In this document: one piece after another, positions 17,889 to 58,679 of the stretch
Layout of the letters: each line of letters begins with the position of its first letter
Position numbering within the stretch: position 1 is the first letter of the stretch
DNA from: Nitrosopumilus sp.
GTDB lineage: Archaea; Thermoproteota; Nitrososphaeria; Nitrososphaerales; Nitrosopumilaceae
NCBI GenBank assembly: GCA_965204345.1
Contig: OZ241981.1
Span: forward strand, 928,001-992,000
Length of the DNA: 64,000 bases
Direction: 5' to 3'
The notes under the pieces: generated by a model
Seen by the model: only the letters and a program-made list of their open reading frames with translations
The model's database searches: none
Told to the model about the DNA's origin: nothing
Position numbers and translations under genes: made by a program

Positions 17889-18791
17889 TTATCTGGGAAA
17901 ATATTTACTCTTTTTTGGTTTTGATCTTGATCTTTCTTCGGTTCTCTTGGCTACAGGTTCTCTAATTTGATTACAATTTAAGCAAAAAACCTTTAGTTCC
18001 TCCCGGGCAAGATCTGGTGATGAGATATATTTTCCCCAGAATGCAATAGCTTCACCACGGCCAGAATTATCAGAGGAAACATTTTGATATATAGGACTTA
18101 TTTCTAAAGCTCGTTCATCTTTAAAGCCACAGTTGGAGCAAACCTTTCCACCCAATATTTCATATAATTTTTCTTTAATGGTTTCAAAAAACTTGTCAGA
18201 ACCGCCTGAAAAGAAGCTTTTTTGTTTTCTTAGAAATTTGTCATTTCGAGATTTTTTAGATCTGGAATTGTCTCTGCTGGACTCTCGTTTAGAGGATGAT
18301 CGTGAATACCTATCGTCTCGTGAATACCTATCGTCTCGTGAATACCTATCGTCTTTGTTTCGTGAATACCTATTGTCTCGTGAATATCTATCGTCTCGTG
18401 AATATCTATCGTCTTTGTTTCGTGAATACCTATCGTCTCGTGAATACCTATCGTCTCGTGAATACCTATCGTCTTTGTTTCGTGAATACCTATCGTCTCG
18501 TGAATACCTATCGTCTTTGTTTCGTGAATACCTATCATTTCCTAAATCTTCTGGTTTGTTTTGTCTAAAACAATCACCGCAATAAACAGGTCTGTTAGTT
18601 CTTGGAATAAATGGAATGGTGCATTCAATGCCGCAATCAGAACAAGTTACAGTTGTAGATTCGTCCCTATCTCTAGATCGTCTGTCATTTCCAGAATTTC
18701 TAAAAGAACGATATGGTTTATTGTCTCGTCTGGAATTTCTTCCATCTGTTTTCCCATCTGAGTACTTTGATTTGTAGAATTTCATTGACAA
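17889..18791 (-). CDS. CxxC-x17-CxxC domain protein with a DDRYSR repeat tract and a C-terminal HNH-like zinc domain
   Basis: CSDC...PFIPRTNRPVYCGDCF; C-terminal CSNC...CLNCN. Confidence 0.85.
   Translation of the reverse strand: MSMKFYKSKYSDGKTDGRNSRRDNKPYRSFRNSGNDRRSRDRDESTTVTCSDCGIECTIPFIPRTNRPVYCGDCFRQNKPEDLGNDRYSRNKDDRYSRDDRYSRNKDDRYSRDDRYSRDDRYSRNKDDRYSRDDRYSRDNRYSRNKDDRYSRDDRYSRDDRYSRSSSKRESSRDNSRSKKSRNDKFLRKQKSFFSGGSDKFFETIKEKLYEILGGKVCSNCGFKDERALEISPIYQNVSSDNSGRGEAIAFWGKYISSPDLAREELKVFCLNCNQIREPVAKRTEERSRSKPKKSKYFPR
18296..18540. repeat. Coding tandem repeat: about 12 units of 18 and 24 bp (TCGTGAATACCTATCGTC with or without TTTGTT)
   Basis: Directly visible, with a higher-order 60-bp period (18+18+24). 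Confidence 0.95.
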
Positions 18792-22649: not shown

Positions 22650-22995
22650 ACAATAGTTTCTGCAAGTGGACAATAAACACTAGGGGAATAAAATACCCAA
22701 AAAACCAAACAGTTAGAATAATGCAACAGAGTCTCATTTCGTACTTGATGAATCGTAGTTGGAATTAATCTTGAATTTTTCAAAATTGTATTTTTGTAAT
22801 TATATTGTCATGATGACTGGGTTTAATAAAAGAATAATTTACTAAGAATCCTAATTAAAATTACAATAATGAGAATTTTATAATCTAGATACGATATATC
22901 TGTAATTAGTTAGGATCAAATGATCTCACTAAATAGTTAACAGAATTGATCGATATCATACTTGTGAGTGAAACATTCTTGATGTTGAGAGTGAT

Positions 22996-24318
22996 TTGAT
23001 GAAAAAAGGGAAAAAATTTCGCGATCCAATTCATAATTTTATTCATGTTAGTCAAGACGAATTAGATATAATCAATAGTCCTATTTTTCAGCGTTCGCAT
23101 AACATCAGACAACTTAGTTTAGGATACTATGTTTATCATGGTGCAGAACATTCTCGTTTTGGACATATGATTGGGGCTTGTCATGTTGCAGGTCTTGCAT
23201 ATGATTCACTTAAAAAAAATACAGAAGAATTAGGAGAAGATTTTAGAGGTAATGATATAGATAGATCAACCTTACGTATGGCAGCACTTCTACACGATGT
23301 AGGTCACGCACCATTTTCTCATTCTTTAGAAAATATTCTAGATGCATCTCATGAAGACTATACTAAAAAACTTGTCAAACATTACTTTGAAGACACATTA
23401 AAAAAAGCAAATGTCGATGTGAATGTTGTAAACAATCTAATTGATGGAGCATATCCAAAAAAGCCATACCTTAGTAAGCTTGTAAGCGGTCAATTAGATG
23501 TTGATAGACTAGATTACCTACTTAGAGATTCATATTATTCAGGAGTAACTTATGGCAGGTATGATTTGGGTAGAATTATTGATCAGTTAGCCATAGTAAA
23601 TGGCAAGTTTGTTGTTCTTCAAGGTGGATATGAGGCAGTAGAGCAGTTAATTTTTGCCAGATATCAGATGTATCAGCAAGTATATTTCCATAAAACAAAG
23701 CGTTCTTTTGAATTGATGCTGTGGCAATGTGGTGAATTGCTAAAGGAAAAAGGATTACTAGATTATCCGAAACTAAAAGATTTGGAAGATAATGTTGGAA
23801 TTGAAGAATATCTTAAACGTGATGATCGTTGGTTTCTAAATTTGATCCACAATGAATCAAACCCAAAAGAAGTAAAACAGATTGCAACTATGATAAAAAA
23901 TAGAAAGCCATATTGGGAAACATATTCGCCAATATCTAATAGAAAACAGTCTACACGAGTGAGAACAGAGCCTGATAATGCTATAGACGGACTAGAAGTG
24001 TTACAAACGGGATTACTTAATGAAATGACATCCCTTGAAATTCAACCACATGAATTTTTAACTGATGAACTTGCTCGTTCACCTTACAAGTTAATGCCAG
24101 ATTATAACATCTCAGATGAGACGGATGGTGAAGGAACGAGTATTTCTATATATTATAAAAATAATCAACTAATAGAACCTGTAGAAAAACGATCTCATGT
24201 TGTTTTTACACTTGCAAAGAATCAGCCATTTATGCTAAGAGGCTTTGTGATCCCTGAAAAATATGAAACTGTGAGAAAGTATCTATCAAAATTTGACTAT
24301 GTTTTACCAAAACGTTAG
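22996..24318 (+). CDS. HD-domain dNTP triphosphohydrolase (SAMHD1/YwfO-like)
   Basis: RDPIH, FQR..IRQL, HSRFGH, LLHDVGHAPFSH, DVDRLDYLLRD and MYQQVYFH motifs. Confidence 0.9.
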   Translation: MMKKGKKFRDPIHNFIHVSQDELDIINSPIFQRSHNIRQLSLGYYVYHGAEHSRFGHMIGACHVAGLAYDSLKKNTEELGEDFRGNDIDRSTLRMAALLHDVGHAPFSHSLENILDASHEDYTKKLVKHYFEDTLKKANVDVNVVNNLIDGAYPKKPYLSKLVSGQLDVDRLDYLLRDSYYSGVTYGRYDLGRIIDQLAIVNGKFVVLQGGYEAVEQLIFARYQMYQQVYFHKTKRSFELMLWQCGELLKEKGLLDYPKLKDLEDNVGIEEYLKRDDRWFLNLIHNESNPKEVKQIATMIKNRKPYWETYSPISNRKQSTRVRTEPDNAIDGLEVLQTGLLNEMTSLEIQPHEFLTDELARSPYKLMPDYNISDETDGEGTSISIYYKNNQLIEPVEKRSHVVFTLAKNQPFMLRGFVIPEKYETVRKYLSKFDYVLPKR

Positions 24319-24382
24319 CTAATCCGACGTATACTGATATTACCATGAGGATTAATATTGAAATTGATTTAATGAAATCCAG

Positions 24383-24946
24383 GTGTTACAAATGGTAAAA
24401 GTCGCTTCAAATAATTCAATAGTTTTACGATTAATTCAAAAAGCTACTGAAAATCCAAATGTGGAAGTCAAAGGAGTGATGGGCAAAAAAGCCCTGCAAA
24501 AAAGTCTCTACTTTTTTAATTTGAAGCACGGATTTTTTAATTTCAAATGGGCTGATTATGGACCGTTAAGTGGCGAAGTACAACAAATCGTTCAAGATCT
24601 TCATTTTGGTGGTAAAATCACCATCAATGATATTGAAACTAAAAAACCAGATGTCTTTATCAAGAATATGAAATACGTTGATGGTTCTGCGGATTTTACA
24701 GCCTTCCCCCCTGATTTAGATGATACTTTGGATGATATTGTAAAATTCACTGCCGGAAAGGGACCAAGGTCTCTTGAACTCTTAGCATCTGTTCATTTTT
24801 GGGCACAAAGACAACAAGATTTGACTGATGAATATACTGCTGAATACTGTCATGAAAAATTAACAGAACTAAAACCAGATGCAGGATTCAAAATTGAAGA
24901 TGTAGAACAAGCAATCAAGACGCTAGAAGTCAATGATTTTCTGTGA
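24383..24946 (+). CDS. YwgA/SocA (Panacea, DUF4065)-like winged-helix protein
   Basis: GKKALQKSLYF...FKWADYGPLS...LELLASVHF pattern; lies directly after the HD gene. Confidence 0.65.
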   Translation: MLQMVKVASNNSIVLRLIQKATENPNVEVKGVMGKKALQKSLYFFNLKHGFFNFKWADYGPLSGEVQQIVQDLHFGGKITINDIETKKPDVFIKNMKYVDGSADFTAFPPDLDDTLDDIVKFTAGKGPRSLELLASVHFWAQRQQDLTDEYTAEYCHEKLTELKPDAGFKIEDVEQAIKTLEVNDFL

Positions 24947-25115
24947 AGATTCTTTTGTATTCATTTCACGCATTACCTTTTCTCTATTTTTTATAATTCC
25001 GTTAAGACATTCTACCAGAGTTTAATTCTTTATTTCTTACTGAAATACTTTGGATATTTTTTACTCTTAAATTTTTCCAAAGTTTTTTCTATAAACTTTA
25101 GTACATCTATATGTA
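24940..25115 (-). pseudogene. DDE transposase C-terminal remnant
   Basis: Minus strand reads LVECLNGIIKNREKVMREMNTKESSQK, resembling the ERLNGxIRDREKVMRG motif of archaeal IS6-like transposases. Upstream sequence is frameshifted. Confidence 0.6.
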
Positions 25116-25546
25116 GATTTTATGAATGAACTAATTTTTCCAAACCAAGAACTATGTGTTTTTCATTTACTCCAAGTTTGTGGTAGTGAAAGACTTGATT
25201 ATAATCAGTTCATGAATACAAGGATGAAAGGAAGAGTTTTCAGACAAGGATGTAACAAGATGTAGTCAATTGAAATGTCTTGTTAGAAAATAATTGAAAT
25301 AAATGCATAGAGTATCCAGTGATGGTTTTCTTAAACGTCATATCAGAATTACACATAAATCTAAGAAATTAGTCTCACAAATCAAGTAATCTTTAAGATT
25401 TTTCATTAGTTTTTGATTATATCAAATTTAGCATTAGATGTATTCCAGTAAAAATATTCAACCACGGATATACATTGTTTTGATAATGATGATAAAAGTA
25501 TACTCTGATAATTAGTAAAAAAGTTATATTTAAGAAATAAATTTTT

Positions 25547-25883
25547 CTAGAGTTCTAATTCTTTATGATTTTGTATTTTGTTTATTTCTTCTATAGACAA
25601 CCAAGTATCTAATTCACCCATTGCTACACCACTACTTACATCCCATCTATCATTTCTTTCAGCTGAGATTAACATCTCATTTTTTCCTGTTTTCTTCTTA
25701 AAATATTCAAATTTACTATTATCATTTCTATATCGAGGATGTTTGTATTCTACCAATACATCAATTTGATGAATAGTTCCAGATTTTCCCTCCATTTTAA
25801 ATCATGAGTTACATGATATCCATTTTTTCAAATAATTCTGCAATCTTTAATTCAAACCTAATACCCTTCCTTAACGCAGACAT
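25547..25883 (-). pseudogene. Frameshifted restriction endonuclease (Mrr-like PD-(D/E)xK) fragment
   Basis: MSALRKGIRFELKIAELFEK, then a frameshift in an A6 run (25823-25828), then GYHVTHDFKMEGKSGTIHQIDVLVEY. Confidence 0.65.
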
Positions 25884-25960
25884 ATGATGATGTTATGAGT
25901 ACCAGCATTTAACAAAAGCGATATTGTTCAAGCAGAAAGTATTCAAATCATTATCCAAAT

Positions 25961-26717
25961 CTAAGATAGTTCATTTGCAAGATAAAGGGGATCTATACAT
26001 TTGATTCCAATTAGTGATTCAATGAGAGAGGAATTATTCAATAAATCTTTATGATCTAGAGTTGCCAGTAAGCAGATTTTCCCAGTGTTTTGTCGAAATG
26101 CTTCAACTTTACATAATATCTGAATATCATTTGGTTTTCTCTGAACTGTTTTTTTTAATTGTGGTTCGTTTCGTAGTTTTTCACAAGTTGAAGGAATTAC
26201 GATCTTAGGAATAATTTTGTACCCACTTAATTTTGTAAGAAAATCAAATTGTATATTTGATGAAATTTTATTAAATTCAACCATTGCCAAAACAACAAAT
26301 TCTGAAATATTTGGAGGGTTTTTTTGTGGGAATTTTCAATTAATAATTCACCAATACAGATTCAATATTTTCAATAATTTGGTGTTCTGATTTATTTACA
26401 GAATATTGACTTTTGAGAGTTTTGAAATGAGATTCAATAAATGACAAATCAGATATCATAATGTGCAAATTTATGCCTTTGAAGATACGATATTCTAAGA
26501 TAAAATTTTTAGATATAGTACCAATCAGAGTAATTATGTCTTTAATTCTATTTTCAACTTATTTTTTGACAGTTTCAGACAGATATTTTTTGAAAGTAAA
26601 GATTTTTTCCAGTTTTTCAATATTACCAGAACGAGATGAATGTGTTTCATTTCCAAATACTTCTGCAAGTAATAGTGAAGAATCTATACAAACAGCAATT
26701 TTCTTTGCTTTAACCAT
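25961..26717 (-). pseudogene. PIN-domain nuclease pseudogene
   Basis: AVCIDSSLL...YLSETVKK*V (TAA at 26559-26561 where Glu is expected), further disruption, then NDIQIL...LLATLDHKDLL. Confidence 0.65.
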
Positions 26718-27636
26718 GTTTTAGAATAAGCGCATGTAATTTTTCATCAAATTCAGTAAAAGATTCAGAATCTAATGAATTTAACATAATATCTTCATCT
26801 AGATATTTTTTATCGATAAAGTTTGTAAATACAGACAGATTATCCCTAAAAGAATTAAAAAATATCTTGAATCGGCTATCATAGATTGTATCTAGTTTTA
26901 ACGGCATTACTTTGAAAAGATCGTTAAGGCTTTGTGCAGTTTTTGAACGAAGATAGAATTTCAAGATCAATTCTGAACGAGAAACATTGGTTAGCAGTCG
27001 TGATATAGCATAATTTTTTTTTTCAAATTTTCCCAATTCATATCTGATTTTTCTTTCATCAGATCTCACCAAATGAAACATACTACGTAGACGCATGAGA
27101 TCATCAACTAGAGTTCTTAGAGCAGATATTTTTTCAATATATGAGATATTATACAAATTATATAATTCAAAAGACAAATTAGACTCTAGAAATTCTGCCA
27201 TAGATTTTTGATGCCATTCATCATACGAGGTTTTTAGTAATAGAGACAATTTAGATAAAGAATCTATTATTATTTCAAATTGAGTATTTACGTCATCAGA
27301 ATTTGATTCAAAAGAGTCAAGAGACTCTTGTATTTCAGTATGTTCATCTAAAAATTGTATAAAGTTTTTTTTCCATAATTCCACATATTGATCAGTGGAA
27401 AACCAATCAGCGTTAAAATCAACACTATTTGTAACATGTGCTATTTCACTGGAGAGCATTTTGAATAAATCAGGTTGTTCGTCTGGGAATAGATCTACAG
27501 TAGTTTTCTTTTGATAGTGCTTTCCGAAACTTTTCTTATGCAAGTTTGGTTTGAAATGATCTAGTACGTATAGAACCGCCGATTTGGCATATTCTTGCTT
27601 TTCATAACTTTGAAAATTAGAAGTTAACGCTTTCAA
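26710..27636 (-). CDS. Hypothetical helical protein, translationally coupled to the PIN pseudogene
   Basis: 308-aa ORF whose 3' end overlaps the ATG at 26717. Confidence 0.65.
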   Translation of the reverse strand: MKALTSNFQSYEKQEYAKSAVLYVLDHFKPNLHKKSFGKHYQKKTTVDLFPDEQPDLFKMLSSEIAHVTNSVDFNADWFSTDQYVELWKKNFIQFLDEHTEIQESLDSFESNSDDVNTQFEIIIDSLSKLSLLLKTSYDEWHQKSMAEFLESNLSFELYNLYNISYIEKISALRTLVDDLMRLRSMFHLVRSDERKIRYELGKFEKKNYAISRLLTNVSRSELILKFYLRSKTAQSLNDLFKVMPLKLDTIYDSRFKIFFNSFRDNLSVFTNFIDKKYLDEDIMLNSLDSESFTEFDEKLHALILKHG

Positions 27637-27807
27637 TTAATTCACATATACTTTTTGAAAGTTGGAGGAATATAATATCTTCTTTCATTTCTTCAAACGG
27701 TCTTTAATTATCAAACATAATTTAAAAATCTCATGAGTGATAAATTTACTAGTCACTTTGCGGATACAAAATTAGACTTAAATGACTCTTGCCTAGAGAT
27801 TTGTTCG

Positions 27808-27882
27808 GGGCTCGTAGCTCAGCTTGGCTGGAGCGTTCGACTGATAATCGAAAGGTCATGAGTTCGAATCTCATCGGGCCCA
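27808..27882 (+). tRNA. tRNA-Ile(GAT)
   Basis: GGGCTCG/CGGGCCC-A; TTCGA-CT-GAT-AA-TCGAA. Confidence 0.96.
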
Positions 27883-27887
27883 CTCAA

Positions 27888-29286: not shown

Positions 29287-29410
29287 TGGAGGAGGTGGGA
29301 TTTGAACCCACGAACTCCTGAGAGACAGGATCACCCATTATTTGATCTTAAGTCCTGCATGTCCAAAAGCACTCAAAGTGCTTACTTTGGCCAGGCTTGA
29401 TTACTCCTCC
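29287..29410 (-). tRNA. tRNA-Leu(TAA) with two introns (D-arm at 29361-29384; canonical at 29332-29346)
   Basis: GGAGGAG/CTCCTCC acceptor, CAGGA-CT-TAA-GA-TCCTG after splicing, and a long variable arm. The D-arm intron has a BHB (CCAA:TTGG) with an AAGCACT/AGTGCTT stem. Confidence 0.9.
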
Positions 29411-30392: not shown

Positions 30393-31256
30393 CTAATAAT
30401 TTTTAATCAATAACTCAAAGTGGCCAGTTCTCTTTTTAGAGTTGGAGTTAATTGAGCGGTTTGCCCTAATTTTGCTTACTTTCCAGGGTTTTGCTGAAAA
30501 CATCTCTGCGACCTCCTTTGAATTAGAATTTGACAAGAGTACCTTGCATCCTTTGGAATCCAAATCTTGGCATAGTTCTGTCAATCTGCCTAGATCATCA
30601 TATGTGAAATCTTTGTTTGTGTAGCTAGTAAAATTGGCAGTTTTGCTAACTGGCTGGTATGGAGGATCAAAATATACAAGATCGCCTTTTTTGGCATCTC
30701 CAAGAACTGCCTCAAAATCCCTGCATTTGATGGAGACCCTACCTGATTCTAAGATACGGCTAACAGAATGAAGATTATCCTCATTGACAATATTTGGATT
30801 GGTGTATTTTCCCAAGGGAACATTGAATTTTCCCTTGCTGTTAACACGGTATAATCCATTAAAGCAGGTTCTATTCAAAAAGAGCAATCGGGACGTTTTT
30901 TCAACCTCGCTTCTAGGATTGCTTTCTCTAACAGAATAATAGTATGCTTTGGAATCCTTTTGATAATTTTTTTCGTGATTTTTTAATGAAGCAATCAGAG
31001 ATTCAACCCTATCTCGAATTGTAGTATATGACAATACAAGATCAGAATTCAGATCAGAAATACTGCATTTTTGGGCAGGACGCTCAGTTAGCATATGGAA
31101 AAGTAACGCACCCCCGCCCAAGAAGGGTTCAAAATAAGTACCAAAAGATTTAGGCAAGTTTTCATTTAGAATTGGAATTAACTGTCGTTTTCCACCTGCC
31201 CATTTTACAAATGGTTTTGGGATAGCAGATGGAATTTGGCTATAGATTTGTTTCAA
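30393..31256 (-). CDS. dam: Dam-family DNA adenine methyltransferase (orphan)
   Basis: KWAGGK, EPFLGGG, FNGLYRVN and DPPY motifs. Confidence 0.92.
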   Translation of the reverse strand: MKQIYSQIPSAIPKPFVKWAGGKRQLIPILNENLPKSFGTYFEPFLGGGALLFHMLTERPAQKCSISDLNSDLVLSYTTIRDRVESLIASLKNHEKNYQKDSKAYYYSVRESNPRSEVEKTSRLLFLNRTCFNGLYRVNSKGKFNVPLGKYTNPNIVNEDNLHSVSRILESGRVSIKCRDFEAVLGDAKKGDLVYFDPPYQPVSKTANFTSYTNKDFTYDDLGRLTELCQDLDSKGCKVLLSNSNSKEVAEMFSAKPWKVSKIRANRSINSNSKKRTGHFELLIKNY

Positions 31257-32713: not shown

Positions 32714-32870
32714 TCATGCCTTTTTTTCTAGGAGTGCCTTTAATTCAAACATTGTGAGTTTCTTGCCTTTTTGCCTGTTGCAGTTGCCACATAACAACTG
32801 GAGGTTATTATCATCATCCAGACCTCCCTTGCCTTTGGTATCATATAATCAACCTCATATTCCTTAAGGA
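32714..32870 (-). pseudogene. HNH endonuclease remnant
   Basis: YEVDYMIPKA, then a frameshift, then GGLDDDNNLQLLCGNCNRQKGKKLTMFELKALLEKKA*. Confidence 0.7.
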
Positions 32871-33059
32871 TTCTATAACGCATGGTTAAAACAAGAAAGA
32901 CGATAAAGAATACTAAAATCATAAGCTCAAAGAAGCCAATGATGAAACTTAGAGAGAGTCTGTTATTCCATGTTTTTGAATTTTCAACCAATATTTTCCA
33001 TATTAGTTTTTGAGATGTCCGCATGAATTCTCTTGTACGAAAATTATGTCCGCATGAAT

Positions 33060-33453
33060 CCACGACAGCAGAGGGCAAACCACATGATGTAGACCAAGGA
33101 TCATTGCTCACAGATAACCAGCATAATTTTTCAATCAGATCACAGACAAATCCAGAGAGCAGATACACGGTATCCAATACTGGCAATGGTCTAATCGGTC
33201 AGTGCAGGGATCACATCACAAGAAAGGAGGACACAATTACATCAAAATCGTATTGGAAATTATCAAAAACAACCATGCAGAAGAGACAGCACGTTACGAT
33301 TATGAAGCACTCAAAACTTGAACTATGCAATATTGTGATTCAGGCAAGATTATCAACAAAGGAACCAGAAAAAACAAATCTGAAAATGTCCGGATTTACA
33401 AGTGTCTAGACTGCAAAAGGAGATTTTCTTCAAAATTAGGTTTGAATGAATAA
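33060..33453 (+). pseudogene. Transposase N-terminal remnant (SWIM plus InsA-like zinc ribbon)
   Basis: FSIRSQTNPESRYTVSNTGNGLIGQCRDHITRK, then frameshifts, then QYCDSGKIINKGTRKNKSENVRIYKCLDCKRRFS. Confidence 0.65.
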
Positions 33454-33592
33454 AACTTACTGTACAAGGAAAATTCAATTTGGAGGGCTTTCAGATCTCG
33501 ATAAATCCTGCATATTCTTAAGCTGAGAAACCACGTACATCTATGGCTTTGAGAAAGATAATAAAAGAAAAAAATGTGCTTGTGCACTTTTT

Positions 33593-51809: not shown

Positions 51810-53984
51810 CTAGGTGTCTGGGCAGCCATCAGTGTCTAGGTCACCGTCATAATCCTCAGGTTCTAGGGGACACGAGTCTTCATCATTGATTATACCGTCT
51901 AAATCATCATCGTGAGCAAATCTTTGTTGTTCTGGGGCAGTGTCAGGGCAGCCGTCATGATCATTATACTTGTTCCAGGTTTCAGGAATTGCCGGACAAG
52001 AGTCAGTCGTATCATAATAGCCATCGCCATCAGAGTCAAATTTTGTCGGTGCCATTGACTGGGCAGCTAATACGTCTGGGCAGCCGTCCCAGTCCAGATA
52101 TCCATTATAATTCTCAGACTCGTCAATACATGCATCCTTTCGATCATCAATTCTGTCACCATCAGAATCGGCAAATATGTATGATGAAGGTATGGCCGAA
52201 CGAGTCAAGTCAGGGCAGCCGTCATCATCTTGGAACATATTATAGATTTCAGGTTCTAGGGGACATGCATCGGAGACATCTGTAATGCCATCCATGTCAG
52301 AATCAAGTGTAAGTGTAAATTGGTCAGGGCAGCCGTCCTCATCTAAAATATCATTGAACGTTTCAGGCTGGGTTGGGCAGGAATCTAAAACATCCGGAAT
52401 ACGATCGCCATCAGAGTCTGCTGTACGTTTGTTGTCTGCTATAGAGTCTGGGCAGCCGTCATCATCTTGGAATCTATTGTAAGTTTCTTTGAGAGAGGGA
52501 CAATCATCAACATTATCAGTTATGCCATCCAAATCAGCATCTCCAAGGGAATCATATTCTACAGAGTCTGGGCAGCCGTCATCATCTTGGAATCCATTAT
52601 ATCTTTCAGCTAGTGCTGGACACATATCATAGTCATCTGGAATATAGTCGTAATCAGAGTCAGCTAATGCGGATTTGAAGAAGCCAGACACGTCTGGGCA
52701 GCCGTCCTTGTCTAAAAAGTCATTATAGTTTTCTGGCTCATCAATGCATTGATCCCACCTATCATCGATGCCATCGCCATCAGCATCTGGGAATTGATAT
52801 GAAGAAAGAATTGAATCAGTAGAATCTGGGCAGCCGTCCTCATCTTGGAACTTGTTATAGGTTTCAGGTTCTAGCATACATGCATCAGAGACATTCGGAA
52901 TGCCATCCATGTCAGTGTCTAGGTCTGATGAGAATTTGTCAGGGCAGCCGTCCTCATCTAAAATATTATTGAACGTTTCAGGCTGGTTTGGACAATGATC
53001 TATGTTATCAACAATGCCATCACCATCAGAGTCTGAAGTACGTTTGTTGTCTGCTATAGAGTCTGGGCAGCCGTCCTCATCTTGGAACTTGTTAAATGTT
53101 TCCAAGATAAACGGACAAAAGTCATTTTGATCTAAAATGCCGTCATTGTCAGCATCACGGACAAGTAAAAATTCAATTTTCTCTGGGCAGCCGTCGCTGT
53201 CTTGGAACTTGTTAAAATTTTCACGATCAAACGGACAAGAATCCACAGAATCTGGAATAGAATCATAATCAGAGTCAGCTAATGCGGATTTGGAGAAGCC
53301 AGACACGTCTGGGCAGCCGTCCTCATCTAAAAAGTCATTATAGTTTTCTGGCTCATCAATGCACTGATCCCACCTATCATCGATGCCATCGCCATCAGCG
53401 TCTGGGAAATTATACTGTGAACTAGTTGAATCATCAACATCTGGGCAGCCGTCATCATCTTGGAACTTGTTATATTTTTCAGGTTCTAGGGGACATGCAT
53501 CTAAAGAATCAGAGATGCCGTCCTGATCACTGTCCATTAGATTCAAAGTATTGTCAGGGCAGCCGTCCTTATCATCAACCCCATTGAACGTTTCAGGCTG
53601 GTTTGGACAGGAATCCAAAAAGTCAGGATAACCATCAGCATCAGAGTCTGCAATATTCTTTGTGTTATCAGGTGACAGGTCTGAGCAGCCGTCCTCATCT
53701 TGGAACTTGTTATATGTTTCTTTTACAGTTGGACAATCATCAACATGATCCTGAATGCCGTCATAATCAGCATCATACCATGGAACAAAATCTGCAGGAC
53801 AGCCGTCTATGTTATCGCCATATTCTAAATCATAATCCTCTAAAAGATGAGGGCAGAAATCAATATCGTCTGGCACCCCATCACCATCAGAGTCAATTTC
53901 TTGATTGGCAAAGGCACCGTTTGGCATCATACCAACAGTGGATGTAAGCAAAAGCAAAAAGCCTAAAAGATATTGTTTTTTCAT
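51810..53984 (-). CDS. Secreted thrombospondin type 3 repeat (Ca-binding) protein, 17 units
   Basis: Signal peptide plus DxDxDGIxDxxDxCP...DGCPD repeats. Confidence 0.9.
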   Translation of the reverse strand: MKKQYLLGFLLLLTSTVGMMPNGAFANQEIDSDGDGVPDDIDFCPHLLEDYDLEYGDNIDGCPADFVPWYDADYDGIQDHVDDCPTVKETYNKFQDEDGCSDLSPDNTKNIADSDADGYPDFLDSCPNQPETFNGVDDKDGCPDNTLNLMDSDQDGISDSLDACPLEPEKYNKFQDDDGCPDVDDSTSSQYNFPDADGDGIDDRWDQCIDEPENYNDFLDEDGCPDVSGFSKSALADSDYDSIPDSVDSCPFDRENFNKFQDSDGCPEKIEFLLVRDADNDGILDQNDFCPFILETFNKFQDEDGCPDSIADNKRTSDSDGDGIVDNIDHCPNQPETFNNILDEDGCPDKFSSDLDTDMDGIPNVSDACMLEPETYNKFQDEDGCPDSTDSILSSYQFPDADGDGIDDRWDQCIDEPENYNDFLDKDGCPDVSGFFKSALADSDYDYIPDDYDMCPALAERYNGFQDDDGCPDSVEYDSLGDADLDGITDNVDDCPSLKETYNRFQDDDGCPDSIADNKRTADSDGDRIPDVLDSCPTQPETFNDILDEDGCPDQFTLTLDSDMDGITDVSDACPLEPEIYNMFQDDDGCPDLTRSAIPSSYIFADSDGDRIDDRKDACIDESENYNGYLDWDGCPDVLAAQSMAPTKFDSDGDGYYDTTDSCPAIPETWNKYNDHDGCPDTAPEQQRFAHDDDLDGIINDEDSCPLEPEDYDGDLDTDGCPDT

Positions 53985-54059
53985 CTCTCTCTGATTCCGC
54001 TATTATCAAGTATTTATTAAGTCTCACGCTAAATTGGTTCTTCTTAAAGTAAGGACAGA

Positions 54060-56231
54060 TTATGGATCTGGACAGCCGTCTAGATCTTGGTCACCATCAT
54101 AATCCTCAGGTTCTAGGGGACACAAGTCTTTGTCATCGATTATACCGTCTAAATCATCATCGTGAGCAAATCTTTGTTGTTCTGGGGCAGTGTCAGGGCA
54201 GCCGTCATGATCATTATACTTGTTCCAGGTTTCTGGAGTTGTTGGACATAAGTCAGTCGTATCAGGATATCCATCAGCATCACTGTCTCCATAAATAGGA
54301 ACTGTAGACTGTGCGCCTAGAATATCTGGGCAGCCGTCCTTGTCTAAAAAGTCATTATAGTTTTCTGGCTCATCAATGCACTGATCCCACCTATCATCGA
54401 TGCCATCGCCATCAGCGTCTGGGAAGTAATATTGTGATCTAACTGAATCATCGACATCTGGGCAGCCGTCATCATCTTGGAACTTGTTATATTTTTCAGG
54501 TTCTAGCGGACATGCATCAAAGATATCTGGAATGCCATCACTGTCAGAGTCTAGGTTTGATGTGAACTGGTCTGGGCAGCCGTCCTTGTCTAAATAATCA
54601 TTGAAGATTTCAGGCTGGGTCGGACACAGGTCAATGACATCTGGAATGCCATCACTGTCAGTATCAGAAGTAAGTTTGTTGTCTGCTATATAGTCTGGGC
54701 AGCCGTCATCATCTTGGAATTTATTGTAAGTTTCAGGAACTAAAGGACACTGATCCAGATGATCATAAATTCCGTCACCATCAGAATCTCCAACTGTTTG
54801 ATAATCAATACCATCAGGACATCCGTCAGCGTCTTGGAATTTATTGTACCTTTCAGCCAATGTCGGACATTGATCCAGATGATCAACTAATCCATCATAA
54901 TCAGAATCTAATGCTTCAGACAATGTAACACCTGGAATATCTGGGCAGCCGTCCCTGTCTAAAAAGTCATTATAGTTTTCTGGCTCATCAATGCACTGAT
55001 CCCACCTATCATCGATGCCATCGCCATCAGCGTCAGGAAATTCATATAAAGAAAGAATTGAATCATCGACATCTGGGCAGCCGTCATCATCTTGGAACAT
55101 ATTATAGATTTCGGGTTCTAGTATACATGCATCAGAGACATTCGGAATGCCATCCATGTCAGTGTCTAGGTTTGATGAGAACTGGTCTGGGCAGCCGTCA
55201 TCATCTAAAATGCCATTAAAGATTTCAGATTGGTTTGGACAATGATCTATGTTATCAGCAATGCCATCACCATCAGAGTCTGAAGTACGTTTGTTGTCTG
55301 CTATAGAATCTGGGCAGCCGTCATCATCTTGGAACTGGTTATATGTTTCAAGACTAAACGGACAAGAGTCATTTTGATCTAAAATCCCGTCATTGTCAGC
55401 ATCACCGGTGATCTTGAATTTTAACATGTCAGGACAGCCATCGCCGTCTTGGAACTTGTTAAAATTTTCACGATCAAACGGACAAGAATCCACAGAATCT
55501 GGAATTCCATCATAATCAGAATCTAATGCTTCAGGCAAAGTAACACCTGGAATATCTGGGCAGCCGTCCCTGTCTAAAAAGTCATTATAGTTTTCTGGCT
55601 CATCAATGCACTGATCCCACCTATCATCGATGCCATCGCCATCAGCGTCTGGGAAATTATACTGTGAACTAGTTGAATCATCGACATCTGGGCAGCCGTC
55701 ATCGTCTTGGAACTTGTTGTATTTTTCAGGTTCTAGGGGACATGCATCTAAAGAATCAGAGATGCCGTCCTGATCACTGTCCATTAGATTCAAAGTATTG
55801 TCAGGACAGCCGTCCTTATCATCAACACCATTGAACGTTTCAGGCTGGTTTGGACAGGAATCCAAAAAGTCAGGATATCCATCAGCATCAGAGTCTGCAA
55901 TATTCTTTGTGTTATAAGGTGACAGGTCTGGGCAGCCGTCATCGTCTTGGAACTTGTTGTATGTTTCTTTTACAGTTGGACAATCATCAACATGGTCCTG
56001 AATGCCGTCATAATCAGCATCATACCATGGAACAAAATCTGCAGGACAGCCGTCTATGTTATCACCATATTCTAAATCATAATCCTCTAAAAGATGAGGG
56101 CAGAAATCAAGATTGTTTGGCACACCATCACCATCAGAGTCAATTTCTTGAGTGGCAAGGACACCGTTTGGCATCATACCAACAGTGGATGTAAGCAAAA
56201 GCAAAAAGCCTAAAAGATATTGTTTTTTCAT
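54060..56231 (-). CDS. Secreted thrombospondin type 3 repeat protein, 17 units (paralog of the adjacent gene)
   Basis: Same repeats; N- and C-termini are nearly identical to 51810-53984. Confidence 0.9.
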   Translation of the reverse strand: MKKQYLLGFLLLLTSTVGMMPNGVLATQEIDSDGDGVPNNLDFCPHLLEDYDLEYGDNIDGCPADFVPWYDADYDGIQDHVDDCPTVKETYNKFQDDDGCPDLSPYNTKNIADSDADGYPDFLDSCPNQPETFNGVDDKDGCPDNTLNLMDSDQDGISDSLDACPLEPEKYNKFQDDDGCPDVDDSTSSQYNFPDADGDGIDDRWDQCIDEPENYNDFLDRDGCPDIPGVTLPEALDSDYDGIPDSVDSCPFDRENFNKFQDGDGCPDMLKFKITGDADNDGILDQNDSCPFSLETYNQFQDDDGCPDSIADNKRTSDSDGDGIADNIDHCPNQSEIFNGILDDDGCPDQFSSNLDTDMDGIPNVSDACILEPEIYNMFQDDDGCPDVDDSILSLYEFPDADGDGIDDRWDQCIDEPENYNDFLDRDGCPDIPGVTLSEALDSDYDGLVDHLDQCPTLAERYNKFQDADGCPDGIDYQTVGDSDGDGIYDHLDQCPLVPETYNKFQDDDGCPDYIADNKLTSDTDSDGIPDVIDLCPTQPEIFNDYLDKDGCPDQFTSNLDSDSDGIPDIFDACPLEPEKYNKFQDDDGCPDVDDSVRSQYYFPDADGDGIDDRWDQCIDEPENYNDFLDKDGCPDILGAQSTVPIYGDSDADGYPDTTDLCPTTPETWNKYNDHDGCPDTAPEQQRFAHDDDLDGIIDDKDLCPLEPEDYDGDQDLDGCPDP

Positions 56232-56243
56232 TCTAAGATACTC

Positions 56244-58679
56244 CTAAGGATCAGGGCAGCCGTCAGCATCTCTATCACCATCATAATCTTCAGGTTCTAG
56301 AGGACACGCATCATATTCATTAATTATATCATCTAAATCAGCATCATGCTTGTATCTTGATTGCTCTGGAACAATATCTGGGCAGCCGTCATGATCATTA
56401 TACTTGTTCCAAGACTCTTTTTCATTTGGACACAAATCAATTTCATCATCAATGCCATCATCATCACTATCAATTACAACATCTCCAATAGGTAAAATAT
56501 CTGGGCAGCCGTCATAATCTACATATCTATTCCAAACTTCATCTTGGTTCGGACATATATCCATCACATCTGGGACACCATCACCATCACTGTCTGGTTG
56601 GGTATCATCAACATCTGGACAGCCGTCCTCATCTTGGATGCCATTATAGTTTTCAGCAACTAGAGGGCAATCATCATAAACATTATGAATTCCGTCATTG
56701 TCTGAATCAATCACATGTGATTCAGATATGGTATCAGGGCAGCCGTCCTCATCTTGGAACTTGTTATATGTTTCCTTTGCAGTTGGACATGCATCAATTC
56801 CATATGGAATTCCATCTAAATCTCTATCGTGTTGTAAAGTGTAATTATCAGGACAGCCGTCTAGATCAAGGATATCATTGAATGTTTCAGGCTGGTTTGG
56901 ACAATTATCATCAAAGTCATTAATTCCGTCATTGTCTGAATCTGGAGTATCTTTGTTATCAGCCACAAAGTCGGGGCAGCCGTCATCATCTTGGAATTTA
57001 TTGTATGTTTCCTTAACTTGAGGGCATTGATCAAGTTCATCAACTATTCCATCAAAGTCCGTATCTAAAGTTGTGGTAAACTCTGGATGATCTGGGCAGC
57101 CGTCATCATCTTGGAAGCCATTGTAAGTTTCACGATCAAGGACGCATTCATCTAGGGAATCAACTATTCCATCAAAGTCAGAATCAGTATCAGATGGATC
57201 ATCTGGGCAGCCGTCATTATCCTGATAACGATTCCAGGTTTCCGGAGTAGAAGGGCATTGATCTAAGGTATCCCTAATTCCGTCATCATCAGAATCTAAC
57301 ACAAGAACATCTGGGCAGCCGTCCTCATCATTATAGCCATTTAATGTCTCTGGTTCTAATGGACACTTGTCATTCAAATCAATAATACCATCAGCATCAT
57401 AATCTGAGTTAAACAATCCAAACACCGTGTCAGGGCAGCCGTCATCATCTTGGAATTTATTGTAGGTTTCCTTAGCAGTTGGACACAAATCTAAACTATC
57501 AACTATGCCATCAGAGTCTCTATCAAAGGGAGAATCTGTGTCAGGACAGCCGTCTCGATCAAAGACACCATTGAACGTTTCAGGTTGGTTTGGGCACAAG
57601 TCTGAAAAATCATTAATTCCATCATTGTCTGAATCTGGTGTATCTTTGTTATCAGTTACAAAGTCGGGGCAGCCGTCATTATCTTGGAATTTATTATAAG
57701 TCTCTTTAACTTGAGGGCATTGATCAACGGTATCAAAAATTCCATCAAGGTCAGAATCGACATCGCCTGAATAAGGAGGAATGTCAGGACAGCCGTCATT
57801 ATCCAAGTATCCATTGTATCGTTCTGGCTTTAATGGACACTCATCATCAATATCAAATATCCTATCACCATCTGCATCATTTTGTGTACCATCAAAAGAT
57901 TGTATTGTATCAGGGCAGCCGTCATAATCAGCAAATTGATTAAAAGTTTCAGGATTATCAGGACAAATATCAAATTGATCAGCGATTCCATCATCGTCTA
58001 AATCACTAAATGAAGAATCAAGTGCAACATCAGGGCAGCCGTCAGTGTCTTTGTAATCATTGTACACCTCAGGCTCTGTTATACAAAAATCAACTTTGTC
58101 TTGAATACCATCATTGTCAGTATCAACAAAAGCAAAATCGTTTACAGAATCAGGGCAGCCGTCCTCATCTTCGAACTTGTTGTAGGTTTCAGGATTAAGT
58201 GGACATTCATCTGCAAAGTCTGAGACTCCGTCCAAGTCCCTATCGCCAGAACCATATGAATCCGGACAGCCGTCTCGATCAAGTATACCATTGAATGTTT
58301 CAGGTTGGTTTGGGCACAAGTCCACCAGATCAATAAAACCGTCACTGTCCGAATCAGATGCGCCACCTTTTCCGCTTCCGGGAATGGTATCAGGGCAGCC
58401 GTCTAGATCCTCAAATTTATTATAATTCTCTTTAAGATTTGGACACTGATCAATATGATCCTCTATTCCATCATAATCCTCATCATACCATGGAACAAAG
58501 TTTGACGGACACCCATCTATCGTACTTTCATAATCTTCTTGCAAATTAGGACACATATCTATGAAATCCTCAACTCCATCTTTGTCCAGGTCATCAGCGG
58601 CAAAAGCTGGATTAATAGGCATACTAGTTAAGGTAGTTACAAGCAACAACAGAAATGATAAATAGTGTATTTTTTTCAA
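56244..58679 (-). CDS. Secreted thrombospondin type 3 repeat protein, 20 units
   Basis: Signal peptide plus repeats; a more divergent paralog. Confidence 0.9.
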   Translation of the reverse strand: MKKIHYLSFLLLLVTTLTSMPINPAFAADDLDKDGVEDFIDMCPNLQEDYESTIDGCPSNFVPWYDEDYDGIEDHIDQCPNLKENYNKFEDLDGCPDTIPGSGKGGASDSDSDGFIDLVDLCPNQPETFNGILDRDGCPDSYGSGDRDLDGVSDFADECPLNPETYNKFEDEDGCPDSVNDFAFVDTDNDGIQDKVDFCITEPEVYNDYKDTDGCPDVALDSSFSDLDDDGIADQFDICPDNPETFNQFADYDGCPDTIQSFDGTQNDADGDRIFDIDDECPLKPERYNGYLDNDGCPDIPPYSGDVDSDLDGIFDTVDQCPQVKETYNKFQDNDGCPDFVTDNKDTPDSDNDGINDFSDLCPNQPETFNGVFDRDGCPDTDSPFDRDSDGIVDSLDLCPTAKETYNKFQDDDGCPDTVFGLFNSDYDADGIIDLNDKCPLEPETLNGYNDEDGCPDVLVLDSDDDGIRDTLDQCPSTPETWNRYQDNDGCPDDPSDTDSDFDGIVDSLDECVLDRETYNGFQDDDGCPDHPEFTTTLDTDFDGIVDELDQCPQVKETYNKFQDDDGCPDFVADNKDTPDSDNDGINDFDDNCPNQPETFNDILDLDGCPDNYTLQHDRDLDGIPYGIDACPTAKETYNKFQDEDGCPDTISESHVIDSDNDGIHNVYDDCPLVAENYNGIQDEDGCPDVDDTQPDSDGDGVPDVMDICPNQDEVWNRYVDYDGCPDILPIGDVVIDSDDDGIDDEIDLCPNEKESWNKYNDHDGCPDIVPEQSRYKHDADLDDIINEYDACPLEPEDYDGDRDADGCPDP

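What the first reader, a model, noticed from the sequence alone, without database searches (positions are those of the whole stretch)
22996..24946. Intact SAMHD1-like dNTPase plus Panacea/YwgA-like partner: candidate two-gene archaeal antiviral or toxin-antitoxin system
These are the only recognisable intact genes in an AT-rich island of decayed nuclease and transposase genes. The HD protein keeps all metal-binding motifs. dNTP depletion is an established antiviral strategy (SAMHD1, bacterial dGTPases). The downstream protein has the LQKxLY...F.W..YGP signature of SocA/Panacea antitoxins and of YwgA, which follows an HD gene in Bacillus. Inference: this is a regulated nucleotide-depleting defence module in an ammonia-oxidising archaeon.
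Basis: partly seen in the sequence, partly recalled or inferred. Interest (0 to 1): 0.75.

Follow-up and report, generated by a model that had tools for sequence, protein, structure and literature searches.

The report
Mobile archaeal dNTPase-antitoxin gene pair
An ammonia-oxidising archaeon carries a mobile pair of genes, one for an enzyme that destroys DNA building blocks and one for a small protein shaped like a known toxin blocker; it may be an untested antiviral or toxin-antitoxin system.

Summary
Both genes are intact. The 440-aa protein is an EF1143/SAMHD1-type (YdhJ) HD dNTPase with every catalytic residue kept, but two dGTP-activator contacts are changed. The 187-aa partner is a YwgA-type protein whose fold is a stand-alone DarG C-terminal domain (Z 16.2), the part of DarG that blocks its toxin by mimicking ssDNA; it is only distantly related to Panacea. 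The pair is accessory. Twenty related thaumarchaeal loci lie in about 18 neighbourhoods, apart from a separate tmk-linked HD paralogue. Nine keep both genes and three keep the partner behind a 3' HD remnant. Six planctomycete loci have the pair in reverse order. A complex prediction gave weak support (0.52, best control 0.00). Against: defence neighbours occur at only 8 of 20 loci, the Priestia pair sits among housekeeping genes, B. thuringiensis has the HD gene alone, and the 'decayed nuclease/transposase island' was not confirmed. An HD(YdhJ)-Panacea pairing was already predicted, untested, in five clostridia (Kurata 2022). Best reading: a type II toxin-antitoxin-like dNTP-depleting module, probably antiviral. 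Nothing is shown biochemically.

The parts
22996..24318 (+). SAMHD1/EF1143-type (YdhJ) HD dNTP triphosphohydrolase, 440 aa (probable start ATG 22999); predicted effector
   Evidence: Pfam HD + HD_assoc_2; EF1143 E 4e-54; model pLDDT 92, best fold EF1143 4lrl TM 0.77; catalytic residues kept; activator-site R44 is H35, K330 is W307
24383..24946 (+). YwgA-type protein, stand-alone DarG C-terminal-domain fold with an N-terminal winged-helix-like part, 187 aa (probable start ATG 24392); predicted inhibitor
   Evidence: PADLOC DarG 163-326/329, E 2.4e-10; NCBIfam DarG 171-338/338; model pLDDT 93.5; 7yk3 Z 16.2, rmsd 3.1, 163 aligned, next hit Z 8.8
24319..24391 (+). AT-rich spacer, possibly holding a promoter of the partner's own (inference)
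   Evidence: similar AT-rich spacers in the other intact pairs, and kept in front of orphan partners in L001, L006, L017; no archaeal promoter test was available
22944..22954 (+). TTGATCGAT-type motif about 50 nt before the HD start; possible operator or Dam site (post hoc, speculative)
   Evidence: GATCG/CGATC at the same distance in 6 of 10 intact loci against 31 of 374 other ORFs; motif picked by eye
22650..27807 (.). AT-rich accessory stretch between a peroxiredoxin gene and tRNA-Ile; also holds unassigned ORFs 25547-25795, 25961-26290 and 26710-27636 (minus strand)
   Evidence: GC 0.299; tRNA-Ile 27808-27883; no convincing terminal repeats; no family hits

Best explanation
A horizontally moving, type II toxin-antitoxin-like module. 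The HD protein is a metal-dependent dNTP triphosphohydrolase (dNTP to deoxynucleoside + triphosphate; family and active site shown, activity inferred). Its dGTP-activator pocket is partly eroded, so it probably depends less on dGTP for activation (inferred). The partner is a DarG-C-terminal-type protein that binds the enzyme and holds it off, perhaps as an ssDNA mimic in the allosteric/nucleic-acid cleft (fold shown; binding weakly supported; site and mimicry inferred). Loss or displacement of the partner, most plausibly during virus infection, frees the enzyme, drains dNTPs and stops viral and host DNA replication (inferred by analogy).
For: Active site complete and nearly invariant in 107 relatives; purifying selection on both genes, dN/dS 0.09-0.19 in 8 of 8 pairwise comparisons. 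Partner fold equals DarG CTD; the only longer relatives found are two Macro-domain proteins; DarG CTD occludes DarT by mimicking ssDNA (PMC11481870, passage); SAMHD1 allosteric sites bind oligonucleotides, which can inhibit it (PMC7854603). Accessory: 20 thaumarchaeal loci in about 18 neighbourhoods, none sharing the window's flanks; two chromosomes hold two copies about 55% identical while the window's partner is 83% identical to L001. A separate tmk-linked paralogue (L010, L019) keeps R44 and K330 and falls outside the partner-linked clade. Pair kept in reverse order in 6 of 6 planctomycete loci. Distances of the two proteins correlate, rho 0.77, 40 pairs, 0 of 5000 permutations. Intact partner behind a 3' HD remnant in 3 of 20 loci; intact HD before a partner fragment in 0 of 20. 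Defence genes near 8 of 20 loci. Complex score 0.52, best of 3 controls 0.00, runs agree in at least 50% of contacts, partner pLDDT at least 83; the mark was reached by 116 of 157 solved complexes and 2 of 215 mismatches, but at 0.60 or under by only 18 of the 157 and by both mismatches, so weak. HD(YdhJ)-Panacea pairs predicted as TA in 5 genomes (PMC8832971 Dataset S1).
Against: The genome scan was anchored on the partner, so HD-only loci were invisible and the loss asymmetry is biased; 3 against 0 is not significant on its own. Nine of 20 loci, and 4 of 9 intact pairs, have no recognised defence or mobile neighbour. The Priestia HD-ywgA pair lies among housekeeping genes and B. thuringiensis has the HD gene without ywgA. 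In planctomycete L022 the partner is split over two frames while the HD ORF is open. In L016 the two genes are divergent. The partner is only mildly acidic (net -6, median -3). No HD-partner fusion was found (weak). The window's own island has no recognised defence gene.
Confidence: 0.5

Rival explanations
1. Accessory dNTP-pool or nucleotide-sanitising enzyme with a co-inherited winged-helix transcription regulator; no toxicity and no defence role.
For: The partner's first 115 residues match PadR/RTP-type winged helices at Z 7-8.6; a motif recurs upstream of the HD gene; the Priestia pair lies in a housekeeping locus and ywgA is absent in B. thuringiensis; EF1143 is described as a dNTP-pool regulator (PMC3190883); YwfO was proposed as a sanitiser (PMC4993169).
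Against: The full-length match is DarG CTD at Z 16.2, far above the winged-helix hits; a tmk-linked paralogue with an intact activator site is already there in L010 and L019; scattered positions and repeated loss are not typical of housekeeping genes.
Confidence: 0.2
2. A selfish addiction module: toxin and antitoxin as above, maintained by post-segregational killing or by stabilising its island, with no antiviral benefit.
For: Many copies sit between core genes or beside transposases; frequent decay with the partner left behind.
Against: dNTP depletion is an established antiviral route (10.1101/2021.04.26.441389; PMC12265719); L002, L004 and L009 lie among restriction and AbiE genes.
Confidence: 0.15
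3. The partner is a sensor or activator: it binds invader DNA or protein and switches on an otherwise latent dNTPase whose own dGTP switch has decayed.
For: Winged-helix-like surface; loss of R44/K330 could silence the enzyme instead of freeing it, as R145A lowers SAMHD1 activity (PMC7045340); HD genes without partner appear tolerated in B. thuringiensis.
Against: Both characterised relatives of the fold, DarG CTD and Panacea, are inhibitors; intact orphan partners (8 of 20 loci) are easier to explain as left-over antitoxins than as left-over activators.
Confidence: 0.1

Closest known systems
Predicted PanAT cluster T34 (HD/YdhJ toxin + Panacea; Kurata et al. 2022, PMC8832971 Dataset S1)
   Same: YdhJ-type HD gene followed by a Panacea-superfamily gene, toxin first, in 5 thermophilic clostridia
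   Different: Untested there and not mentioned in the main text; bacterial; partner passes the Pfam Panacea model, this one does not. I could not fetch those proteins, so direct homology was not tested.
DarTG (DarG C-terminal domain, PDB 7yk3)
   Same: Fold over 163 residues and the QK.Y / YGP / ELLASxH motifs
   Different: No macrodomain; no DarT hit among the 150 nearest neighbours; the linked gene is an HD hydrolase
Enterococcus EF1143, human SAMHD1
   Same: Fold, metal site, catalytic dyad and substrate contacts
   Different: R44 (SAMHD1 R145) is His and K330 is Trp; no SAM domain; neither has a linked inhibitor gene in the passages read
Bacillus-type ywfO-ywgA pair (gene names recalled; 'YwgA' also given by JGI)
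   Same: Same two families in the same order in Priestia; the partner profile hits it at E 1.4e-6
   Different: Lies in a housekeeping neighbourhood; activator site intact; ywgA missing in B. thuringiensis
Anti-phage dGTPases (Tal et al.) and Clover (CloA-CloB)
   Same: dNTPase as effector; Clover also has a second gene that restrains it
   Different: The single-gene dGTPase models match only weakly (16.9 bits against cut-off 400); CloB is a nucleotidyltransferase that makes an inhibitory nucleotide, whereas this partner has no enzyme fold

Membership tests
SAMHD1-like (YdhJ) dNTPases | H...HD...D metal site, His-Glu dyad and substrate contacts | tested here: met
   EF1143 H66/H110/D111/D183, E122/H129, Q48, H61, R63, H114, H119, Y187, D191, Y239, Y243 all kept
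SAMHD1-like (YdhJ) dNTPases | N-terminal beta hairpin and C-lobe, overall fold | tested here: met
   model; Foldseek TM 0.77 to EF1143, 0.7 to SAMHD1; criteria from PMC7854603 section 10
SAMHD1-like (YdhJ) dNTPases | Guanine-specific activator site (EF1143 K14, N36, Q41, R44, F64, R326, K330) | tested here: inconclusive
   5 of 7 kept; R44 is His (29 of 91 relatives too), K330 is Trp (Lys in 6 of 90 of the clade)
SAMHD1-like (YdhJ) dNTPases | Tetramer and dNTP triphosphohydrolase activity | not testable with these tools
   needs purified protein
Panacea / SocA (PF13274) | Match to the Pfam model at its cut-off | tested here: not met
   no hit at E up to 0.1; 5 of 105 close relatives hit weakly, best E 0.023; 25 of 129 distant relatives at E up to 0.01, 4 at or above cut-off
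Panacea / SocA (PF13274) | GPV signature in strand 2 | tested here: inconclusive
   G60 and P61 invariant in 105 of 105, third residue Leu here
Panacea / SocA (PF13274) | Neutralises the neighbouring toxin by direct binding | tested here: inconclusive
   prediction only, weak support 0.52 against 0.00
DarG antitoxin | C-terminal toxin-binding domain | tested here: met
DarG antitoxin | N-terminal macrodomain | tested here: not met
   187 aa, matches only DarG 163-338; no Macro hit
DarG antitoxin | Linked darT | tested here: not met
   neighbour is the HD gene; no DarT hit in the island or among the 150 nearest neighbours of related loci
Anti-phage dGTPase (PADLOC dGTPase, NF041026) | Full-length match to the family model | tested here: not met
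   25.6 bits over 87 of 395 positions; 16.9 bits against cut-off 400; the tmk-linked paralogue scores higher
Clover | Partner is a Pol-beta nucleotidyltransferase | tested here: not met
   partner has the DarG CTD fold; definition from PMC12265719
Type II toxin-antitoxin system | Adjacent, co-inherited two-gene unit with patchy, mobile distribution | tested here: met
Type II toxin-antitoxin system | Toxin alone inhibits growth and the antitoxin rescues | not testable with these tools
   needs expression assays

The most novel reading that the evidence does not exclude
An archaeal antiviral system in which a SAMHD1-type dNTPase has swapped its dGTP switch for a protein switch: an ssDNA-mimicking DarG-C-terminal-type inhibitor sits in the nucleic-acid/allosteric cleft and is displaced by viral ssDNA or a viral protein. 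YwgA, DarG CTD and Panacea would then be one antitoxin superfamily, and the Bacillus ywfO-ywgA locus a domesticated copy.
Probability: 0.2. Interest if true: 0.8.

Novelty: new variant of a known kind. Interest (0 to 1): 0.52.

Why it matters
No SAMHD1-type dNTPase with a dedicated protein inhibitor turned up in the ten paper-search slots used, apart from an untested supplementary prediction. If the reading holds, it adds a way to restrain a toxic dNTPase that differs from Clover's nucleotide signal, gives a function to the uncharacterised YwgA family, links it to DarG and Panacea, and provides a small testable antiviral candidate in ammonia-oxidising archaea. The two proteins can be tested directly in vitro.

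Tried and rejected
Panacea membership: not met. Known PADLOC system: only partial dGTPase and DarG hits. Decayed nuclease or transposase genes in the island: no support; the Atlas gave no usable hit for the 308-aa ORF. Island boundaries: no convincing att-type or terminal repeats; the sigma-70 promoter scan was at chance level, 14 against 13.3, and does not fit archaea. Partner on plasmids: no match with the window protein; more distant queries hit mostly Macro-domain DarG-like genes. HD in phages: 13 distant hits under 40% identity, context not examined. Viral fold search for the partner: one weak winged-helix-like hit, E 7e-4. R44-to-His as a sign of decay: rejected, 29 of 91 relatives share it. 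The Hjc gene before the orphan partner in L008 was considered as a swapped toxin and dropped: it looks like the ordinary resolvase. Six of eight plasmid-collection HD loci inspected had no partner homologue nearby, and B. thuringiensis was a seventh. NetFlax paper PMC10440598: no HD or YdhJ term in the main text or in 2 supplements; its file 1 could not be searched. PMC9503650 and PMC3632139: passages not relevant. The 2023 paper on nucleotide-targeting effectors cited by Clover was not held, so it may bear on novelty. Names and taxa of the distant partner homologues stayed unchecked. The tree is the quick version; the careful search did not finish.

Full report
Observation. The two ORFs exist as described: 22996-24318 (440 aa) and 24383-24946 (187 aa), both on the plus strand. 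Database versions start at the ATGs at 22999 and 24392 (439 and 184 aa), which leaves 73 nt between the genes. They lie in a stretch of GC 0.299 (window 0.386) between a peroxiredoxin gene and tRNA-Ile, about 6.5 kb from amoA. The claim of decayed nuclease and transposase genes was not borne out: 18 island fragments and the island ORFs gave no such family in Pfam, PADLOC, NCBIfam or PHROGs, and an open 308-aa ORF of unknown function is also there.

The enzyme. It hits Pfam HD and HD_assoc_2. The best solved relative is Enterococcus EF1143 by sequence (E 4e-54) and by fold (TM 0.77); SAMHD1 follows. With the residue list of PMC3190883 (passages) and the printed alignments, all four metal ligands, the E122/H129 dyad and nine further active-site residues are kept and nearly invariant in 107 relatives. 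The dGTP-activator site differs: K14, N36, Q41, F64 and R326 are kept, R44 is His35 and K330 is Trp307. His occurs in 29 of 91 relatives with a residue there and Lys330 in only 6 of 90 members of the archaeal clade, whereas the two tmk-linked paralogues, two Bacillus-type and two planctomycete enzymes checked keep both. The equivalent Arg145 matters for SAMHD1 activity (PMC7045340, passages) and is highly conserved in prokaryotic SAMHD1-like enzymes (PMC7854603 section 10). That the clade has changed its activation logic is an inference; the change could free the enzyme or silence it. It is not a member of the anti-phage dGTPase family.

The partner. It does not match Pfam Panacea. It matches the C-terminal half of DarG in PADLOC (E 2.4e-10), NCBIfam and the PDB. 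Its model (pLDDT 93.5) aligns to the DarG C-terminal domain 7yk3 at Z 16.2, rmsd 3.1 over 163 residues, with the next hit at 8.8 among 48,161 chains. The only longer relatives found were two Macro-domain proteins. The profile finds 564 cluster representatives; 25 of 129 scanned hit Panacea weakly and 4 reach its cut-off, and it hits the gene after the HD gene in Priestia (E 1.4e-6). So YwgA, DarG CTD and Panacea are linked by sequence; this protein is nearest the first two. DarG CTD blocks DarT by mimicking ssDNA (PMC11481870, passage citing Deep 2023, which I did not read), and Panacea proteins bind their toxins (PMC8832971, passages).

Distribution. One partner-anchored scan of GTDB genomes gave 26 loci: 20 thaumarchaeal from 18 records and 6 planctomycete. 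Of the 20, eight have intact HD then partner, one (L016) has both intact but divergent, three have an intact partner behind a 3' HD remnant (L001, L006, L017), five have an intact partner and no HD trace, one ends at the contig edge, and two have only a partner fragment. Only L010/L019 and L003/L011 share flanking genes, and none shares the window's. Two chromosomes carry two copies, 55 and 56% identical, while the window's partner is 83% identical to L001. In L010 the pair sits beside a second HD gene, about 35% identical, between thymidylate kinase and an amino-acid-kinase-family gene; L019 has the same gene with only a partner fragment at that site. In a quick tree the ten partner-linked archaeal enzymes fall on one side of a branch with support 99, apart from that paralogue. 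All six planctomycete loci have the partner directly before an HD gene; in L022 the partner is split over two frames. This shows travel as a unit, not function. dN/dS was 0.09-0.19 in all 8 comparisons, orphan partners included.

Neighbours. I scanned 246 of 329 neighbour representatives in Pfam and the nearest 150 plus 24 others in PADLOC. Defence-type genes lie within 10 kb at 8 of 20 loci: L002 (PDC-S02, GmrSD, Eco57I-type), L004 (type ISP, HNH), L009 (Mrr, AbiE), L012, L013, L017, L018, L020 (TIR, AbiEii). Three more have only transposase pieces and nine have nothing recognised. Among the nine with both genes intact the split is 3, 2 and 4. Fifty-four window ORFs away from the island had no restriction, toxin-antitoxin or transposase family, the nearest being an EVE gene and a MoxR-vWA pair; that is one genome, not a matched control. 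For comparison, 53% of close Sp-dGTPase homologues and 10% of distant ones lay next to defence genes (10.1101/2021.04.26.441389, passage; different method). Against a strict system, the Priestia pair lies among housekeeping genes and B. thuringiensis has the HD gene without the partner.

Binding. One HD chain with the partner scored 0.52 against 0.00 for the best of three controls; runs agreed in at least 50% of contacts, partner pLDDT at least 83. The mark was reached by 116 of 157 solved complexes and 2 of 215 mismatches, but at 0.60 or under by only 18 of the 157 and by both mismatches: weak support, no interface given. The enzyme is probably a tetramer, which was not modelled.

Mechanism. 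Most likely (0.5) a type II toxin-antitoxin-like unit: the partner binds and silences a dNTPase, and its loss or displacement, probably in infection, drains dNTPs. Shown: families, folds, active site, linkage, mobility. Inferred: activity, toxicity, binding site, trigger, antiviral role. The ssDNA-mimic idea rests on DarG and on SAMHD1's allosteric sites taking oligonucleotides (PMC7854603 section 12); the partner is only mildly acidic. Rivals: accessory housekeeping enzyme with a winged-helix regulator (0.2), selfish addiction module (0.15), partner as activator (0.1).

Prior knowledge. Dataset S1 of PMC8832971 lists five predicted, untested pairs of an HD/YdhJ protein and Panacea, toxin first, in thermophilic clostridia (cluster T34), and marks the Nitrosopumilus genome shown as lacking Panacea; the main text does not mention T34 and its second supplement could not be searched. 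Clover restrains a dNTPase by a nucleotide signal (PMC12265719, abstract and opening). PMC13519002 (abstract and section 6) covers fused dGTPases, not this pair. A search for YwgA gave 12 listings, none evidently on the protein (listing only). The kind is thus known in outline; the archaeal mobile clade, the DarG-CTD identity of the partner and the eroded activator site were not found in print in these searches. Verdict: new variant of a known kind, interest 0.52.

Noticed in passing
window 22944-22954 and upstream of HD in L002, L005, L007, L009, L010: A GATCG/CGATC motif 67-80 nt before the conserved FRDP codons in 6 of 10 intact loci against 31 of 374 other ORFs. Chosen post hoc; could be an operator or a Dam site. 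An orphan Dam-type methylase lies at window 30393-31256.
   Followed up: partly
window 26710-27636 (minus): Open 308-aa ORF with no family, Atlas or plasmid match.
   Followed up: partly
protein P0043: A 59%-identical partner homologue has the same longest-contig length as the window's own protein, which suggests a second copy in this genome.
   Followed up: no
L007 16235-17955: A second, more distant YwgA/Panacea-like gene overlaps a 388-aa gene with no family hit that by recall resembles tRNA-guanine transglycosylases; possibly another toxin-antitoxin pair. L002 2-532 holds another such gene.
   Followed up: partly
L030 3628-7413 and L031 3794-7413: On Sinorhizobium and Labrenzia plasmids a related HD gene ends a conserved four-gene run (radical SAM, 3'-5' exonuclease, AAA ATPase, HD) among defence genes.
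   Followed up: no
L032 5409-8280 and L033 5463-8352: HD proteins of about 810 aa, each preceded by a small unassigned gene, near CBASS-like or HNH genes on plasmids.
   Followed up: no
window 32740-33590: Between amoX-like and amoC genes lies a stretch with a weak match to a transposase-associated ORF of L006 (E 1e-4); possibly an insertion remnant inside the amo cluster.
   Followed up: no
window 29287-29410: A tRNA-like stretch on the minus strand, probably with an intron, that ARAGORN did not list.
   Followed up: no
window 17889-18791 (minus): Zinc-finger protein with a tandem RYSRDD/RYSRNKDD repeat tract.
   Followed up: no
window 51810-58679 (minus): Three adjacent large genes with thrombospondin type 3 repeats.
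   Followed up: no
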